A stretch of 32,000 bases of DNA from Luteococcus sp. H91 (GTDB taxonomy: Bacteria > Actinomycetota > Actinomycetes > Propionibacteriales > Propionibacteriaceae). Location of the stretch: the NCBI RefSeq assembly GCF_038433135.1, contig NZ_JBCDMV010000011.1, positions 30,491 to 62,490 on the forward strand, written 5' to 3'. Positions 20,430 through 25,842 of the stretch are shown here, piece by piece. Under the pieces are notes generated by a model that searched no databases, was not told the origin of the DNA, and saw nothing but the letters and a program-made list of their open reading frames with translations. Each line of letters starts with the position of its first letter. The first letter of the stretch is position 1. A program made the translations under genes and the position numbers.

Positions 20430-21329
20430 ATGGCCGTCGGTCCTGGGCTCCGTAGGCTGGTTGGTGTGACCTTCCCCATTGCCACGCCCCGCCCGTCCCT
20501 GCCCCGACGCCTGTTCCGCTGGGCCGTGCGCCTGCTGCTGGCGGGGGCGGTACTGCTGGGGCTGCTGGCCGGGATGAGCTGGTACGAGGTGACCCACACC
20601 AAGGTCGCGAAATTGGAGCTGACCAGCAGCAAGATCACCGGGCGAGCGCTGCGCGTGCTGCAGATCACGGACCTGCATGATCTGCAGTACACCAGTCAGC
20701 GCGATGACCTGATCACGATGGCGCGGACGCAGAATCCGGACCTGATCGCCCTGACCGGGGACTTCGTGAACACCAATACCCGCGACTTCGGCCGGCTCGA
20801 CACCTGGTTCGGCCAACTGGAGGAGCTGAAGATCCCGATGTTTGCGGTGCCCGGCAACCACGACCACTGGCAGGGCAACCTGCCCGGGCTGGAGAAGATG
20901 CTGACCAGCCACGGGGTGGCCGTGCTGGACGACCGGCACGTCCGCCTCGACGGCCCGTGGGGCGCGCTGGACGTGATCGGCACCGATGACTACTACACCC
21001 GGCGCGGGCGGCTGGCACTCGCGATGGACGGCACCCGGCCCGACGCGTACCAGCTGGTGCTGACCCACGCGCCGGAGATCCGGCGGGACCTGGCCGCGTC
21101 CACCGCCGATCTGGTGATCTGCGGCCACACCCACGGCGGACAGGTACGGATCCCCGGGGTGGGGGCCATCGTGGCGCCCGGCCAGCCCTACTTCCCGGAC
21201 TATGACAAGGGGCTCTACGAGATCGGAAAGTCCAAGCTGTACATCGATTCCGGGGTGGGCCAGACGGCACCGCTGCGCCTGTTCGACCAGTCCCAGATGA
21301 CCCTGATCGCCATCAGACCCACCCGCTGA
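20430..21329 (+). CDS. Membrane-anchored calcineurin-like metallophosphoesterase
   Basis: N-terminal TM segment (LLLAGAVLLGLLAGMSWY), then the motifs ITDLHD, LTGDF, GNHDH, LTHAP and GHTHGG. Confidence 0.85.
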   Translation: MAVGPGLRRLVGVTFPIATPRPSLPRRLFRWAVRLLLAGAVLLGLLAGMSWYEVTHTKVAKLELTSSKITGRALRVLQITDLHDLQYTSQRDDLITMARTQNPDLIALTGDFVNTNTRDFGRLDTWFGQLEELKIPMFAVPGNHDHWQGNLPGLEKMLTSHGVAVLDDRHVRLDGPWGALDVIGTDDYYTRRGRLALAMDGTRPDAYQLVLTHAPEIRRDLAASTADLVICGHTHGGQVRIPGVGAIVAPGQPYFPDYDKGLYEIGKSKLYIDSGVGQTAPLRLFDQSQMTLIAIRPTR

Positions 21330-21386: not shown

Positions 21387-23423
21387 ATGGCACGAATCGG
21401 CTTCATCTCGCTGCACACTTCCCCGCTCGATTCGCCCGGCTCCAAGGACGCGGGCGGGATGAACGTCGTCGAGGTGCACCAGGCCAAGGCGCTGGCCGAC
21501 CGGGGGCACGTCGTCGAGCTGGTCACTCGTCGGGACAACACGGAGCTGCCCGACGTGACCGAGATCCACCCCGGGGTGACGGTCCGGCAGATCGTCGCCG
21601 GGCCCACCGAGCCGCTGGCCAAGAGCGCCCAGGATGAGTGGATCGACGACTTCTCCGCCGCGCTGGCCCGGCTGGAACCCTATGACGTCGTGCACTCGCA
21701 GCACTGGATGAGCGGGGTGGCGGCGCTGCCGGTCGCGAAGCGCTGGGGCGTGCCGCACGTGCAGAGCTTCCATTCGGTGGCGGCGCTGCCGGGTGATCCG
21801 CTGAGCGAGGGCGAGCCGCCCGAATCGCCCGGACGCAATGCCGGGGAACGACTGATCGCGCGCGAGTCGGATCTGGTGATCGCCGTCAGCCAGTACGAGG
21901 CGAAGACCATCGTCGAGCGTTGCGGGGCCGATCCGGAACGCGTCATGGTGGTGCACCCCGGGGTGGACACGGAGCTCTTCCACCCGCTGGACGACGACTG
22001 CCGCCGGTGGAACCCGGAGCTGAACAGCCCGGACGAGCCGCCGCAGTTCGGCCCGGTCTGCGTCGCCCCCAATCCCAATGGCTACCTGCTCTTTGCCGCC
22101 CGGCTGCAGCCGCTGAAGGCGCCCGATCTGGCGCTGGTGGCGGTGGCCGGCATCCCCGACGAGCTCCGCCCCACGCTGGTGATCGCCGGCGAGGCCAGCC
22201 AGGATTTCGCCAGCTACCGCGACGAACTGATCGACCTGAGCCAGAACCTGGGGATCGCCCACCAGACCTGTTGGCTGGGATCCCAGACCCGGGAGGATCT
22301 GGCCCGACTGGTCCGAGGAGCCCGCGCGGTGCTGGTGCCGTCGTTCAGCGAGACCTTCGGGCTGATCGCCCTGGAGGCCCAGGCCTGTGGCGTCGCCGTG
22401 GTCTCCGCCGATTCCGGCGGCCTGCGGGAGGCCGTGGCCGACCAGGAGACCGGCGTACTGGTGACCGAGCGAAGCGCCGAGGCATGGACGTCGGTGTTGA
22501 CCGATCTACTGCGTGCCCCGGACCGGTTGTGCGAACTGGGCCGGGCCGGCCGCCAGCGCGCCCTGGGCTTTGGTTGGGATGCGGTGGCCGGGCAGTTGGA
22601 GACCCATTACGAGTCGCTGGCCGGCAAGGGCCCCCTTGACAAAGCCTGTCCTGAGCCTGTCGAGGCCCCTCTCGCCCCGGCCGACCGCAGCATCCTGCAG
22701 GGTGTCACCCGGGTGCTCTTCTGCCACGCGCACCCCGACGACGAAACTCTCGCCACCGGAGCTCTGATCGCCCACCTGACCGGCCGCGGGATCGCCTGTG
22801 ACCTGGTGACCGCGACCCGTGGCGAGATGGGCGAGGTGGTTCCCGGGCCGCTCAGCCACCTGGCCGGGACGCCGCAACTGGAGGCCCACCGGGAGGGTGA
22901 GCTGACCGGGGCGTTGCGGGAACTGGGCATCCAGCGGCACGTCTGGCTGGGCACCGAACCCGCCCGGGCCGATGCGCTGCCCACCCGGATCTACCGGGAT
23001 TCGGGGATGGAGTGGATCCGCCCCGGTCTGGCCGGCTCCGCCGATGCCACCGACGAGCGCAGCTTCACCTTTGCCGACATCGATGATGCGGTGGCGGATC
23101 TGGCGAGCGCGATCAATGCCTGGCGGCCGGATCTGGTGGTCAGCTACGACGCCGAGGGCGGCTACGGTCACCCCGACCACGTCCGGATGCACGAAGTGGC
23201 CGGGCGCGCCGCCCGCCAGCTGGGGGTGCCGTTCGCGGAGATCCGGCACCAGCCGGGCCCGTCCGTGGAATGGTTCGAGCTGCCGGAGACCCTGCCCGTC
23301 GTCGCGAAGGCGCTGCGACAGCACGCCACCCAGCTGACGGTGCAGCCCAATGGCACCGAGGTGGTGCATTCCGGCGGGCAGCGGGATCCGATCGTGACCG
23401 CCGTCGGACTCGCGGCCCACTGA
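21387..23423 (+). CDS. Fusion protein: MshA-like GT4 glycosyltransferase (N-terminal, about 410 aa) plus MshB/Mca-like PIG-L family N-deacetylase (C-terminal, about 240 aa)
   Basis: Single uninterrupted 678-aa ORF. N-terminal part: MARIGFISLHTSPLDSPGSKDAGGMNVVEV...HSQHWMSG...VHPGVD...E(x7)E-type GT-B C-domain (FSETFGLIALEAQACG). Linker: GKGPLDKACPEPVEAPLAPADRS. C-terminal part: VLFCHAHPDDETLATG...YRDSGM...GGYGHPDHVRMHEV...RQHATQL. Confidence 0.8.
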   Translation: MARIGFISLHTSPLDSPGSKDAGGMNVVEVHQAKALADRGHVVELVTRRDNTELPDVTEIHPGVTVRQIVAGPTEPLAKSAQDEWIDDFSAALARLEPYDVVHSQHWMSGVAALPVAKRWGVPHVQSFHSVAALPGDPLSEGEPPESPGRNAGERLIARESDLVIAVSQYEAKTIVERCGADPERVMVVHPGVDTELFHPLDDDCRRWNPELNSPDEPPQFGPVCVAPNPNGYLLFAARLQPLKAPDLALVAVAGIPDELRPTLVIAGEASQDFASYRDELIDLSQNLGIAHQTCWLGSQTREDLARLVRGARAVLVPSFSETFGLIALEAQACGVAVVSADSGGLREAVADQETGVLVTERSAEAWTSVLTDLLRAPDRLCELGRAGRQRALGFGWDAVAGQLETHYESLAGKGPLDKACPEPVEAPLAPADRSILQGVTRVLFCHAHPDDETLATGALIAHLTGRGIACDLVTATRGEMGEVVPGPLSHLAGTPQLEAHREGELTGALRELGIQRHVWLGTEPARADALPTRIYRDSGMEWIRPGLAGSADATDERSFTFADIDDAVADLASAINAWRPDLVVSYDAEGGYGHPDHVRMHEVAGRAARQLGVPFAEIRHQPGPSVEWFELPETLPVVAKALRQHATQLTVQPNGTEVVHSGGQRDPIVTAVGLAAH

Positions 23424-23486: not shown

Positions 23487-23891
23487 TCAGCGGTGGCCGC
23501 GGATCCGCTTGTCCAGCAGGGTGTACAGGCTGACGGCGGCACCGGTGAAGGCCAGGCCTAGCGCCACGTGCAGCCACTTCAGGCCGCCGCTGCCGCCGAT
23601 CATCTCGCCCAGACCGGTCTGCAGGATGGCCAGCACCGGCAGGCTCAGCGAATGGAAGAACAGGCCCTTGGCGCTCGCGTCGGCCTTGCGGGTCTGGAAG
23701 GCGAAGAAGGCGGCGACGACGCTGGCCAGCAGGGTGAGGTAGCCGAAGCCGCTGTGCGCCTTGGCGATCGCGACGGAGTTGTACCCGGTGAGCATGGCGA
23801 TGCCCAGGGCGAGCTGCACGAAGACCGAGGCGATGATCACCAGCGCGGTGGTCTTGAGGCGGGAAAGGGTGGGAGTGACGGTGGTAGCCAT
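23487..23891 (-). CDS. Integral membrane protein (4 TM), function unknown
   Basis: MATTVTPTLSRLKTTALVIIASVFVQLALGIAML... has four hydrophobic helices, with His residues inside helices 2 and 4 (AHSGFGY, WLHVALG). Confidence 0.6.
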   Translation of the reverse strand: MATTVTPTLSRLKTTALVIIASVFVQLALGIAMLTGYNSVAIAKAHSGFGYLTLLASVVAAFFAFQTRKADASAKGLFFHSLSLPVLAILQTGLGEMIGGSGGLKWLHVALGLAFTGAAVSLYTLLDKRIRGHR

Positions 23892-23998: not shown

Positions 23999-24982
23999 GT
24001 GAAGGACATCGTCATCTTCTCCGGAACGGCCCATCAGCAGTTGGCACAGGAGATCTGCCAGAACCTGGGCGTGCAGCTCAGCGGGGTCGACATCCGTCGT
24101 TTCAGCAATGACTGCATCCAGGCACAGCTGCTGACCAACTGCCGCCGCCGCGACGTGTACATCGTGCAGCCCCTGGTTCCCCCGACACAGGAGAACCTGA
24201 TGGAGCTGCTGCTGATGATCGATGCCGCCCGCGGCGCCTCCGCCGAGTACATCACCGCCGTGATGCCGCACTATGCCTACGCGCGCAGCGACAAGAAGGA
24301 CGCCAGCCGGATCTCCATGGGCGGCCGGCTGGTGGCCGACATGTTGAAGACCGCCGGTGCCACCCGCGTCCTCACCATGAGCCTGCATTCCCCGCAGGTG
24401 CAGGGATTCTTCTCCATGCCGGTGGACCAGCTGACCGCCATCGGGGTGTTGGCCGAGCACTATCAGGGCAAGGACCTGACCGATTGGGTGGTGGTCTCCC
24501 CCGACTTCGGCAATGCCAAGGAGGCGGCCACCTTCGCCCGGCTGCTCGGGCTGCCGATGGCCGTCGGCTCCAAGAAGCGGGTCTCCGACGACAAGGTGGT
24601 GATCGACTCGATCGTCGGCGACGTGGTGGGCAAGAAGGCCATCGTGATCGACGACGAGATCGCCACCGGCGGCTCGATCCTGGAATTGCTGGACAAGCTG
24701 GAGGAGTTCGGCTGTCAGCAGGCCTCGGTCTGCACCACGCACGGCTTGTTCAACGGCAAGGCCGTCGAGCGGCTGCAGGGTCACCACATGATCACCGAGG
24801 TGGTCACCACCAACACCGTTCCGCAGGATCACCCCGACTGGACCCACCTGCAGGTGCGCAGCGTCGCCGGGCTCTTCGCCGAGGCGATCCGCCGCACCCA
24901 CGACGGCAAGAGCGTCAGCAAGCTCTTCCGCGGAGTGGATCCGCAGTACGCCCCTCCGCCGCCCCGCGACGGGCTCTTCTGA
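23999..24982 (+). CDS. prs: Ribose-phosphate diphosphokinase (PRPP synthetase) family protein, somewhat divergent
   Basis: GTG start with a GGAAGG Shine-Dalgarno sequence. ...ITAVMPHYAYARSDKKD...LHSPQVQGFF...AIVIDDEIATGGS (PRPP-binding loop). Confidence 0.8.
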   Translation: MKDIVIFSGTAHQQLAQEICQNLGVQLSGVDIRRFSNDCIQAQLLTNCRRRDVYIVQPLVPPTQENLMELLLMIDAARGASAEYITAVMPHYAYARSDKKDASRISMGGRLVADMLKTAGATRVLTMSLHSPQVQGFFSMPVDQLTAIGVLAEHYQGKDLTDWVVVSPDFGNAKEAATFARLLGLPMAVGSKKRVSDDKVVIDSIVGDVVGKKAIVIDDEIATGGSILELLDKLEEFGCQQASVCTTHGLFNGKAVERLQGHHMITEVVTTNTVPQDHPDWTHLQVRSVAGLFAEAIRRTHDGKSVSKLFRGVDPQYAPPPPRDGLF

Positions 24983-24997
24983 TCAACCCGGTCTGGA

Positions 24998-25798
24998 TCA
25001 CCCCAGTGGAGTGAAGGGCCAGCCCTCCACCATCCCGTTCGGGTTGCCGTGCTCCCGGTAGAACTCCCGGCCGAACATGGCCGCGAAGGACGCGTCGTCG
25101 AAGCCGGTCAGCATGCCGATGTCGGTGACCTGGCTGGCGTGGCAGAGCAGCGCCTGGCGCTTCAGCGACAGCTGCGCCGAGACGTCCACCGACCAGTGGA
25201 TCTCCGCCTGGGGCGTGCCCATCGGGTTGCCGTCGTCGGCCGGGCCGGTGGGGTCGAAGGCCAGCTCCATCCCCTGCTCCTTGGCGGCCTGCACCATCCG
25301 GACGGTCTCGTCACGGTTGATGGTCACCTCCAACACCCGGGGGCGACGCCTGGCCAGGGCCGCGGCCCGGTAGGCGACCGGGTGCACCTTGACGTGGTCG
25401 GGGTGGCCGTAGTTGCCATGCCAGTCATAGCCGACCAGCACGTCGGCGTCCTCCTCGTCCAGGATCTTCGCCAGCCGAGCCGCGGCCTCGTCCAGATCCG
25501 CGGCGTGGAAGGAGCCGGGGTCGTCATTCATCTCCCAGCCGGTCATGCCGGAATCGCTGTAGCCCAGCCATTCAACCCGGGCGGTGCCCAGCACCTCGGC
25601 AGAGGCAGCGGCCTCCTTGCGTCGCCGCTCGACGATGGTCTCGCCCGGCGCCAGATCATCAGGCACCTCGCCGTGGTCGCCATTGGTGGCATAGACCAGG
25701 ACGACGCGGTCACCCTGCTGGGTGGCTCGGGCCATGGAGCCGGCGGTGCCGGAGGCCTCGTCGTCGGGGTGGGCGTGCAGGAAGACGATCGTGCTCAT
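24998..25798 (-). CDS. PIG-L family deacetylase (MshB/Mca-like)
   Basis: MSTIVFLHAHPDDEASGTAG...YSDSGM...GNYGHPDHVKVH...LCHASQV. In-frame ATGs also occur at 25807 and 25810; 25798 was chosen because GGAG precedes it and AHPDDE normally sits close to the N-terminus. Confidence 0.8.
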   Translation of the reverse strand: MSTIVFLHAHPDDEASGTAGSMARATQQGDRVVLVYATNGDHGEVPDDLAPGETIVERRRKEAAASAEVLGTARVEWLGYSDSGMTGWEMNDDPGSFHAADLDEAAARLAKILDEEDADVLVGYDWHGNYGHPDHVKVHPVAYRAAALARRRPRVLEVTINRDETVRMVQAAKEQGMELAFDPTGPADDGNPMGTPQAEIHWSVDVSAQLSLKRQALLCHASQVTDIGMLTGFDDASFAAMFGREFYREHGNPNGMVEGWPFTPLG

Positions 25799-25842
25799 GG
25801 GCTCCATCATCCCACGCAGAGCAGTTGATTCCTCAATTACCC

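What the first reader, a model, noticed from the sequence alone, without database searches (positions are those of the whole stretch)
21387..23423. Single ORF fusing an MshA-like glycosyltransferase to an MshB/Mca-like deacetylase
The N-terminal 410 aa or so carry the hallmarks I associate with MshA (ISLHTSPLDSPGSKDAGGMNV..., HSQHWMSG, GT-B C-terminal E-x7-E region). After a Pro/Ala-rich linker of about 25 aa (GKGPLDKACPEPVEAPLAPADRS), the frame continues without a stop into a complete PIG-L domain with the MshB/Mca motifs AHPDDE, YRDSGM, GGYGHPDH and HATQ. In mycobacteria and corynebacteria mshA and mshB are separate, unlinked genes that catalyse steps 1 and 3 of GlcN-inositol (mycothiol core) synthesis. 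The analogous bacillithiol pathway also pairs a GT4 with a PIG-L enzyme. A covalent fusion would channel GlcNAc-X to GlcN-X, and it gives Rosetta-stone evidence for the pairing. It also raises the question of how the intervening dephosphorylation step is handled. Alternatively, the enzyme may make a different GlcN-containing glycoconjugate.
Basis: partly seen in the sequence, partly recalled or inferred. Interest (0 to 1): 0.6.

Follow-up and report, generated by a model that had tools for sequence, protein, structure and literature searches.

The report
Fused mycothiol-type glycosyltransferase–deacetylase gene
A Luteococcus bacterium has one gene that joins a divergent relative of the first mycothiol-pathway enzyme (MshA) to a short relative of the third (MshB); this gene pair replaces the textbook enzymes across several actinobacterial families and has fused repeatedly.

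Summary
The 678-aa ORF at 21387-23423 (+) is real. It has a complete GT4 glycosyltransferase (aa 1-411), a disordered linker of about 25 aa, and a complete PIG-L deacetylase (aa 437-678). All catalytic residues are intact.

The best family and structure matches are MshA and MshB, but both halves score below NCBI's equivalog cut-offs. In trees both fall outside the canonical MshA and MshB/Mca clades.

The genome (Luteococcus, 99.4% complete) has MshC, MshD and Mca, but no other MshA or MshB candidate and no ino1.

The same GT + PIG-L pair occurs in about 57 of 81 sampled Propionibacteriaceae and in some Microbacteriaceae, Dermabacteraceae and Dermatophilaceae. It is usually two genes whose stop and start codons overlap or nearly touch. 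The pair was always found with MshC and never with canonical MshA.

Of 75 loci, 13 are fused, which needs at least 7-9 independent fusion or fission events. So the fusion is genuine but not unique.

It most likely makes the GlcN-inositol core of mycothiol. ino1 is missing from most carriers, and it is unknown how the phosphate is removed between the two steps.

The parts
21387..23423 (+). Whole fused ORF, 678 aa (P0001)
   Evidence: Open frame. Pfam finds GT4 + GT1 + PIG-L in one frame. Fused homologues exist in other assemblies.
21387..22619 (+). MshA-like GT4 retaining glycosyltransferase domain (aa 1-411)
   Evidence: TIGR03449 scores 322 bits over model positions 1-403 of 406, below the 462.5 cut-off. 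CgMshA 3c4q is the best sequence hit (202 bits) and the best fold hit (TM 0.90). N26, K79, H129, R150, R239, K244, E322 and E330 are invariant in 75 variant and 30 canonical sequences.
22620..22694 (+). Pro/Ala-rich linker (aa 412-436), variable and predicted disordered
   Evidence: pLDDT is below 50 for residues 415-432. The junction DNA does not align with split Luteococcus relatives, which have TGA-C-ATG or an ATGA overlap at this point. The span between conserved Y408 and H447 ranges from 13 to 59 aa among 38 fused homologues.
22695..23420 (+). Short MshB-like PIG-L (LmbE) zinc deacetylase domain (aa 437-678)
   Evidence: TIGR03445 scores 155 bits on model positions 1-157 of 284 only. The Mtb MshB equivalents H13, D15, D16, E47, R68, D95, M98, Y142, H144, D146 and H147 are all invariant in 81 variant sequences. 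About 85 residues follow the HPDH motif, against 148 in MshB and Mca. Mtb MshB is the best PIG-L fold hit (TM about 0.7).

Best explanation
The gene encodes a bifunctional enzyme for the mycothiol core. Each step below is inferred from homology and genome context; no activity was measured.

1. The N-terminal GT4 domain transfers GlcNAc from UDP-GlcNAc to a phosphorylated acceptor, most likely 1L-myo-inositol-1-phosphate.
2. The tethered PIG-L domain removes the N-acetyl group to give GlcN-inositol.
3. The genome's MshC and MshD then convert GlcN-inositol to mycothiol.

The gene belongs to a divergent 'MshA*/MshB*' two-gene module that stands in for canonical MshA and MshB in most Propionibacteriaceae and in parts of the Micrococcales. 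The ancestral state is two adjacent genes whose stop and start codons overlap or nearly touch, which suggests translational coupling. In this Luteococcus sublineage the stop codon was lost and a flexible linker arose, so the two enzymes are now made in a fixed 1:1 ratio and kept close together. A separate phosphatase is still needed, acting either between the two steps or after them. It remains unidentified.
For: Shown:
- The ORF is intact and has both domains.
- MshA and MshB are by far the best family hits. MshA scores 322 bits against 100 for the next GT family; MshB scores 155 against 79 for Mca and 37 for BshB2.
- MshA and MshB are also the best solved-structure hits.
- The own genome has MshC (597 > 485), MshD (249 > 163) and Mca (459 > 277), plus an Mtr-like reductase at 582 bits. 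There is no other MshA-like GT above 122 bits and no canonical MshB.

Phyletic pattern:
- All 57 sampled Propionibacteriaceae genomes carrying the pair have MshC. All 12 MshC-less genomes lack the pair.
- Five carriers from three other families have MshC but no canonical MshA or MshB.
- None of the 183 canonical-MshA genomes in a class-wide sample carries the variant PIG-L.

Residues:
- UDP- and acceptor-site residues are invariant, including the phosphate-binding Lys and Arg.
- The MshB catalytic set is invariant, including M98 (Leu in Mca) and E47 (variable in the third PIG-L family).

Other candidates and neighbours:
- The other PIG-L gene in the window (24998-25810) belongs to a third family that coexists with canonical MshB elsewhere, so it is not the MshB stand-in.
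- The GT and PIG-L genes are the only neighbours conserved beyond genus level.
Against: - Both halves fall below NCBI's equivalog cut-offs and outside the canonical clades. The variant PIG-L is separated from {MshB + Mca + third family} by a branch of length 1.04 with SH-aLRT support 100.
- The PIG-L C-terminal subdomain is about 63 residues shorter than in MshB.
- Two acceptor-site positions differ from canonical MshA: Y110 to H and T134 to S in 67 of 75 sequences.
- ino1 is absent from this genome and from 36 of 57 carriers in the family. By contrast about 96% of canonical-MshA genomes have it. The inositol phosphate source is therefore unexplained.
- No activity or thiol data exist for any carrier in the literature searched.
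Confidence: 0.65

Rival explanations
1. The module makes a GlcN-glycoside of an acceptor other than inositol phosphate. The product would be either a mycothiol analogue with a different aglycone, which MshC and MshD then process, or an unrelated GlcN-containing glycoconjugate.
For: Both halves lie outside the canonical equivalog clades and cut-offs. ino1 is absent here and in about 63% of family carriers and 4 of 5 carriers from other families, against about 4% of canonical-MshA genomes. Acceptor-site positions Y110 and T134 are changed, and the PIG-L C-terminal subdomain is truncated. The Mtr-like reductase is also just below its cut-off.
Against: Co-occurrence with MshC is perfect and the distribution is complementary to canonical MshA and MshB. 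MshC, MshD and Mca all pass their equivalog cut-offs. The phosphate-binding K78 and R154 and the inositol-facing R231 are invariant. Genus g31 has canonical MshA yet also lacks ino1, so ino1 loss does not by itself imply a new acceptor. 21 carriers do have ino1.
Confidence: 0.2
2. Only the glycosyltransferase half works in mycothiol synthesis. Under this reading Mca (or another PIG-L) does the deacetylation, and the fused PIG-L domain has another role, for example as an amidase on a different substrate.
For: By my recollection, Mca has low MshB-type activity in mycobacteria. The fused PIG-L is phylogenetically farther from MshB than the window's second PIG-L is.
Against: The whole MshB catalytic set is invariant in 81 sequences, including the MshB-type M98. 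Gene adjacency or fusion with the GT is conserved across four families. In Cryobacterium, Agreia, Brachybacterium and Canibacter the pair's PIG-L and Mca are the only PIG-L proteins found at E <= 1e-20.
Confidence: 0.1
3. The single ORF is an assembly or sequencing artefact that hides a stop or frameshift between two adjacent genes.
For: The closest named relatives (Luteococcus sp. OSA5, Sow4_B9 and L. peritonei) have two genes, joined by TGA-C-ATG or an ATGA overlap. Reads could not be inspected.
Against: The junction is not a 1-nt difference. It is a stretch of about 60-70 nt with no counterpart in the split relatives. Independent assemblies give fused proteins at 71-89% identity. Luteococcus sp. 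H101 is fused and forms a subclade with the window (support 92). Fusions with 13-59 aa between the conserved Y408 and H447 exist in roughly a dozen protein clusters at 50% identity.
Confidence: 0.03

Closest known systems
MshA, D-inositol-3-phosphate glycosyltransferase (C. glutamicum 3C48/3C4Q/3C4V; M. tuberculosis Rv0486; TIGR03449)
   Same: It is a GT4 retaining GT-B fold (TM 0.90 to 3c4q). The match is full length. The UDP and acceptor residues N25, K78, H133, R154, R231, K236, E316 and E324 are invariant. It occurs in genomes with MshC, MshD and Mca.
   Different: Identity is about 31%. The score of 322 bits is below the 462.5 cut-off. It forms a separate clade sister to canonical MshA. 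Y110 is H and T134 is S. It has a low-confidence insertion at aa 206-221. Its gene is adjacent to or fused with a PIG-L gene, whereas mshA is unlinked in mycobacteria and corynebacteria.
MshB, GlcNAc-Ins deacetylase (M. tuberculosis Rv1170; 1Q74, 4EWL; TIGR03445), and its paralogue Mca
   Same: It has the PIG-L/LmbE zinc hydrolase fold. The metal ligands H13, D16 and H147, the general base D15, and H144, Y142, R68, D95 and M98 are all conserved. MshB is the best PIG-L hit by both sequence and fold.
   Different: Only model positions 1-157 of 284 align. About 63 residues of the C-terminal subdomain are missing. A strongly supported branch separates it from MshB + Mca + the third actinobacterial PIG-L family.
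Bacillithiol genes bshB1-bshA of Bacillus (a GT4 and a PIG-L enzyme in one operon)
   Same: The logic is the same: a GT4 GlcNAc transferase and a PIG-L deacetylase are encoded side by side and make the GlcN-aglycone core of a low-molecular-weight thiol.
   Different: The sequence relationship is weak (BshA 72 bits, BshB1 30 and BshB2 37 bits). The BshA acceptor is malate, so no phosphate has to be removed. I know of no fused form.
Sucrose-phosphate synthase GT domain (Tll1590, 6KIH)
   Same: It is the second-best structural and sequence relative (127 bits; TM 0.89). It is also a GT4 acting on a phosphorylated acceptor whose product is later dephosphorylated.
   Different: It uses a UDP-glucose donor and a fructose-6-phosphate acceptor, and it has no association with PIG-L or with msh genes.

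Membership tests
MshA (TIGR03449 equivalog) | HMM score at or above the curated cut-off (462.5 bits) | tested here: not met
   322.4 bits. Variant homologues score 214-361 bits, canonical ones 506-685.
MshA (TIGR03449 equivalog) | Placement inside the canonical MshA clade | tested here: not met
   Canonical MshA forms a clade with SH-aLRT support 99. The variant sequences fall outside it as sister lineage(s), far closer to it than any GT4 paralogue in the genome.
MshA (TIGR03449 equivalog) | UDP-GlcNAc and Ins-1-P binding residues of CgMshA | tested here: inconclusive
   N25, K78, H133, R154, R231, K236, E316 and E324 are invariant. Y110 is H and T134 is S in 67 of 75 sequences. The residue list is partly recalled from Vetting et al. 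2008, which is not held. The roles of R231 and E324 are confirmed in PMC2628429.
MshA (TIGR03449 equivalog) | Pathway context: MshC, MshD and Mca present and no other MshA | tested here: met
   for this genome; for relatives.
MshA (TIGR03449 equivalog) | Catalysis of UDP-GlcNAc + 1L-Ins-1-P to GlcNAc-Ins-P | not testable with these tools
   Needs an enzyme assay.
MshB (TIGR03445 equivalog) | HMM score at or above the cut-off (224.35 bits) over the full length | tested here: not met
   155.2 bits, on model positions 1-157 of 284 only.
MshB (TIGR03445 equivalog) | Placement inside the MshB/Mca clade | tested here: not met
   A branch with SH-aLRT support 100 and length 1.04 separates the variant PIG-L from {MshB + Mca + third family}.
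MshB (TIGR03445 equivalog) | Zinc ligands and catalytic residues (H13, D15, D16, H144, D146, H147, Y142, R68, D95, M98) | tested here: met
   All are invariant in 81 variant PIG-L sequences.
MshB (TIGR03445 equivalog) | Complete C-terminal subdomain (about 148 residues after the HPDH motif) | tested here: not met
   The median is 85 residues in the variants against 148 in MshB and Mca.
PIG-L / LmbE superfamily (PF02585) | Pfam gathering score and fold | tested here: met
   85.8 bits against a cut-off of 28.2. Foldseek to MshB gives TM about 0.7.
GT4 glycosyltransferases (PF13439 + PF00534) | Both Rossmann-like halves and the E-x7-E motif | tested here: met
   104.9 and 110.1 bits. E322 and E330 are conserved.

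The most novel reading that the evidence does not exclude
The variant GT/PIG-L module may run a reordered or altered pathway, in one of two ways. (a) The truncated PIG-L domain deacetylates the phosphorylated intermediate GlcNAc-Ins-P directly. Steps 1 and 3 would then be truly consecutive, which would explain the repeated fusions, and dephosphorylation would come last. (b) In the many carriers without ino1, the module uses a different phosphorylated acceptor and yields a non-inositol mycothiol analogue.
Probability: 0.2. Interest if true: 0.75.

Novelty: new variant of a known kind. Interest (0 to 1): 0.45.

Why it matters
Mycothiol biosynthesis is described from mycobacteria and corynebacteria, where mshA and mshB are unlinked and the intervening phosphatase (MshA2) has never been assigned to a gene.

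This work shows three things:
- Whole actinobacterial families (most Propionibacteriaceae, and parts of Microbacteriaceae, Dermabacteraceae and Dermatophilaceae) use a divergent, tightly coupled GT/PIG-L module instead.
- Annotation pipelines label this module only 'glycosyltransferase'.
- The module has fused many times.

That has practical consequences. It gives a sturdier basis for predicting mycothiol use from genomes. It offers a natural bifunctional enzyme for making GlcN-Ins. It also sharpens two open questions: when the phosphate is removed, and where ino1-less mycothiol producers get their inositol phosphate.

Tried and rejected
- **Papers not held.** Vetting et al. 2008 (MshA structure), Newton et al. 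1996 (thiol survey) and the 2008 MMBR mycothiol review could not be read. The Ins-P contact list is therefore partly from memory.
- **Literature searches.** Searches for a described MshA-MshB fusion, or for mycothiol in Propionibacteriaceae, Tessaracoccus or Microbacteriaceae, found nothing relevant.
- **Query error.** In one search my C-terminal query was cut out of frame. Frames were re-derived.
- **'The GT uses free inositol, so no phosphatase is needed.'** Rejected, because the phosphate-binding K78 and R154 equivalents are invariant in all 75 variant sequences.
- **'The upstream metallophosphoesterase (20430-21329) is MshA2.'** Weak. It is a YaeI/LpxG-like phosphodiesterase, and it neighbours the pair only within Luteococcus.
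- **'The second PIG-L (24998-25810) is the real MshB.'** Rejected. It belongs to a third PIG-L family that coexists with canonical MshB in other actinomycetes.
- **'ino1 loss is specific to the variant module.'** Rejected as stated, because genus g31 has canonical MshA and also lacks ino1.
- **Conserved neighbours.** Clustering of flanking genes across 80 loci found no partner gene conserved beyond genus level.

Full report
**Observation.** Window 21387-23423 (+) translates into 678 residues without a stop. Its codon-position GC pattern is that of a real gene in this 68-70% GC genome (GC3 0.88). Pfam places a GT4 N-terminal half (23-196), a GT1 C-terminal half (232-391) and a PIG-L domain (444-608) in the same frame. 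An AlphaFold2 model built on 38 fused homologues has mean pLDDT 86.5. It shows two well-folded domains joined by a segment (415-432) with pLDDT below 50, and pTM is 0.61, as expected for two tethered domains.

**Family assignment of the halves.** Against NCBIfam the N-terminal half matches MshA (TIGR03449) end to end with 322 bits. The next GT family reaches 100 bits and BshA 72. The C-terminal half matches MshB (TIGR03445) with 155 bits, Mca with 79 and BshB2 with 37. Both scores are below the curated equivalog cut-offs (462.5 and 224.35), and the MshB match covers only model positions 1-157 of 284. Among solved structures, C. glutamicum MshA is the best hit by sequence (202 bits) and by fold (TM 0.90, rmsd 2.8 Å). 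M. tuberculosis MshB is the best PIG-L hit (102 bits; TM about 0.7).

**Genome context.** The window lies in a 3.43-Mb assembly that is 99.4% complete. Homologue names and locus titles identify it as a Luteococcus, family Propionibacteriaceae.
- Present above cut-off: MshC (597 > 485), MshD (249 > 163) and Mca (459 > 277).
- Just below cut-off: a mycothione-reductase-like gene (582 < 636).
- MshA candidates: the next GT4 after the window gene scores only 122 bits.
- MshB candidates: no canonical MshB exists.
- ino1: not found by two profile searches, nor by tblastn with three Propionibacteriaceae Ino1 proteins.

The second PIG-L gene in the window (24998-25810, minus strand) groups with a 'third' actinobacterial PIG-L family. 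That family coexists with canonical MshB and Mca in other genomes, so this gene is not the missing MshB.

**Distribution.** In a sample of 81 Propionibacteriaceae genomes, P0001-like GT and PIG-L hits occur in 62. Five of these are removed: genus g31 has canonical MshA, and g34 has a different, ino1-adjacent MshA-like GT. That leaves 57 carriers of the variant module, nearly always as two directly adjacent hits on one strand. All 57 have MshC above cut-off, and all 12 MshC-less genomes lack the module.

The module also occurs in Microbacteriaceae (Cryobacterium, Agreia, Plantibacter, Herbiconiux, Mycetocola, Canibacter), Dermabacteraceae and Dermatophilaceae. Five such genomes have MshC, but no canonical MshA and no canonical MshB.

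Conversely, canonical MshA is present in 183 of 201 genomes of a class-wide sample. No variant-type PIG-L was found in any of them. The three weak matches are partial, and one overlaps a canonical MshB. The module and the canonical enzymes are therefore complementary in distribution, which is the pattern expected of functional replacement. These genomes are related to one another, so the counts overstate statistical independence.

**Phylogeny.** With GT4 paralogues as outgroup, canonical MshA forms one clade (support 99). The variant GTs form one or two sister lineages, and the paralogues sit on branches of 3.9-5.6 substitutions per site. With canonical MshA as outgroup, the variants are monophyletic (support 100). 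In the PIG-L tree a branch with support 100 and length 1.04 separates the variant PIG-L domains from {MshB + Mca + third family}. Both halves are thus nearest relatives of the mycothiol enzymes but not members of the canonical groups. The Canibacter pair nests inside the Luteococcus clade in both trees, which suggests horizontal transfer of the module.

**Fusion history.** Of 75 related loci with both halves, 13 are single ORFs and 62 are two genes. In most of the split loci the PIG-L is in the -1 frame only 14-20 codons after the GT stop. Examples are the ATGA overlap in L. peritonei and TGA-C-ATG in Luteococcus sp. OSA5 and Sow4_B9. On the GT tree the fused/split character needs at least 9 changes, 7 of them forced by strongly supported branches. 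The window and Luteococcus sp. H101 form a small fused subclade among split Luteococcus. Their linkers are unrelated in sequence, and among 38 fused homologues the span between the conserved Y408 and H447 ranges from 13 to 59 residues. About a dozen protein clusters at 50% identity in the 1.84-billion-protein library are fused. The fusion is therefore a recurrent, evolutionarily easy step from an adjacent, probably translationally coupled gene pair. It is neither unique nor an artefact.

**Residues.** Across 75 variant and 30 canonical GT sequences, the following CgMshA equivalents are invariant in both sets: N25, K78, H133, R154, R231, K236, E316 and E324. Y110 is His and T134 is Ser in 67 of 75 variants. 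The roles of R231 and E324 are documented in PMC2628429. The other contacts are recalled from Vetting et al. 2008, which I could not open. Retention of the Lys/Arg phosphate clamp argues for a phosphorylated acceptor and against free inositol.

In 81 variant PIG-L sequences the full MshB catalytic set is invariant. This includes M98 (Leu in Mca) and E47 (variable in the third family). However, only about 85 residues follow the HPDH motif, against 148 in MshB and Mca.

**Open problems.**
1. *Inositol phosphate supply.* ino1 is missing in this genome, in 36 of the 57 family carriers and in 4 of 5 carriers from other families. About 96% of canonical-MshA genomes have it. Genus g31 has canonical MshA and also lacks ino1. 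Loss of ino1 therefore does not by itself prove a new acceptor, but the source of inositol phosphate is unexplained.
2. *The phosphatase step.* No conserved partner gene accompanies the module. The upstream metallophosphoesterase is YaeI/LpxG-like and is a neighbour only in Luteococcus. Either an unlinked phosphatase acts between the two domains, or the truncated PIG-L acts on the phosphorylated intermediate. This cannot be decided computationally.

**Verdict.** I put 0.65 on a bifunctional GlcN-Ins (mycothiol core) synthase, 0.2 on a different aglycone or product, 0.1 on a PIG-L half with another role, and 0.03 on an artefact. No paper in the searchable library describes the fusion or the variant module, although databases hold hundreds of such proteins under generic names. 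I rate it a new variant of a known kind, of moderate interest.

Noticed in passing
window 24998-25810 (-): This is a second PIG-L gene (270 aa; 132 bits on the MshB model, positions 2-237). It groups with a 'third' actinobacterial PIG-L family of unknown function that coexists with canonical MshB and Mca in many genomes.
   Followed up: partly
window 20430-21329 (+): A YaeI/LpxG-like calcineurin-type metallophosphoesterase ends 58 bp upstream of the fusion gene. It neighbours the GT/PIG-L pair only in Luteococcus loci (L027, L028, L029, L031, L039), so it is a weak candidate for the missing MshA2 phosphatase.
   Followed up: partly
G034:C18:30420-34539; G063:C1:2496905-2499374; G031:C1:1248203-1250408; G016:C13:53436-57082: A further MshA-like GT4 subtype (216-361 bits on TIGR03449, 35-38% identical to P0001) lies directly next to ino1 in several Propionibacteriaceae. 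G016 has both this gene and the GT/PIG-L pair.
   Followed up: no
Propionibacteriaceae genus g31 (G030, G060, G079): This is the only sampled genus of the family with canonical MshA above the cut-off (506-519 bits), yet no ino1 was found in any of its three complete or near-complete genomes.
   Followed up: no
L030 (Canibacter oris, Microbacteriaceae): Its fused GT/PIG-L gene nests within the Luteococcus clade in both the GT and PIG-L trees, which suggests horizontal transfer of the whole module between families.
   Followed up: partly
G000:C16:335385-336782: A mycothione-reductase-like gene scores 582 bits, just under the TIGR03452 cut-off of 635.65. It lies about 16 kb from MshD (C16:352693-353550).
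   Followed up: no
window 23999-24982 (+) and 23487-23891 (-): A ribose-phosphate diphosphokinase (Prs) gene and a 134-aa ORF with no family match lie between the fusion gene and the second PIG-L. This arrangement is conserved within Luteococcus only.
   Followed up: no
P0001 residues 203-225 (window about 21993-22061): A low-confidence insertion (pLDDT below 50 for residues 206-221) sits in the GT domain between its two Rossmann-like halves. It is absent from CgMshA and variable among homologues.
   Followed up: no
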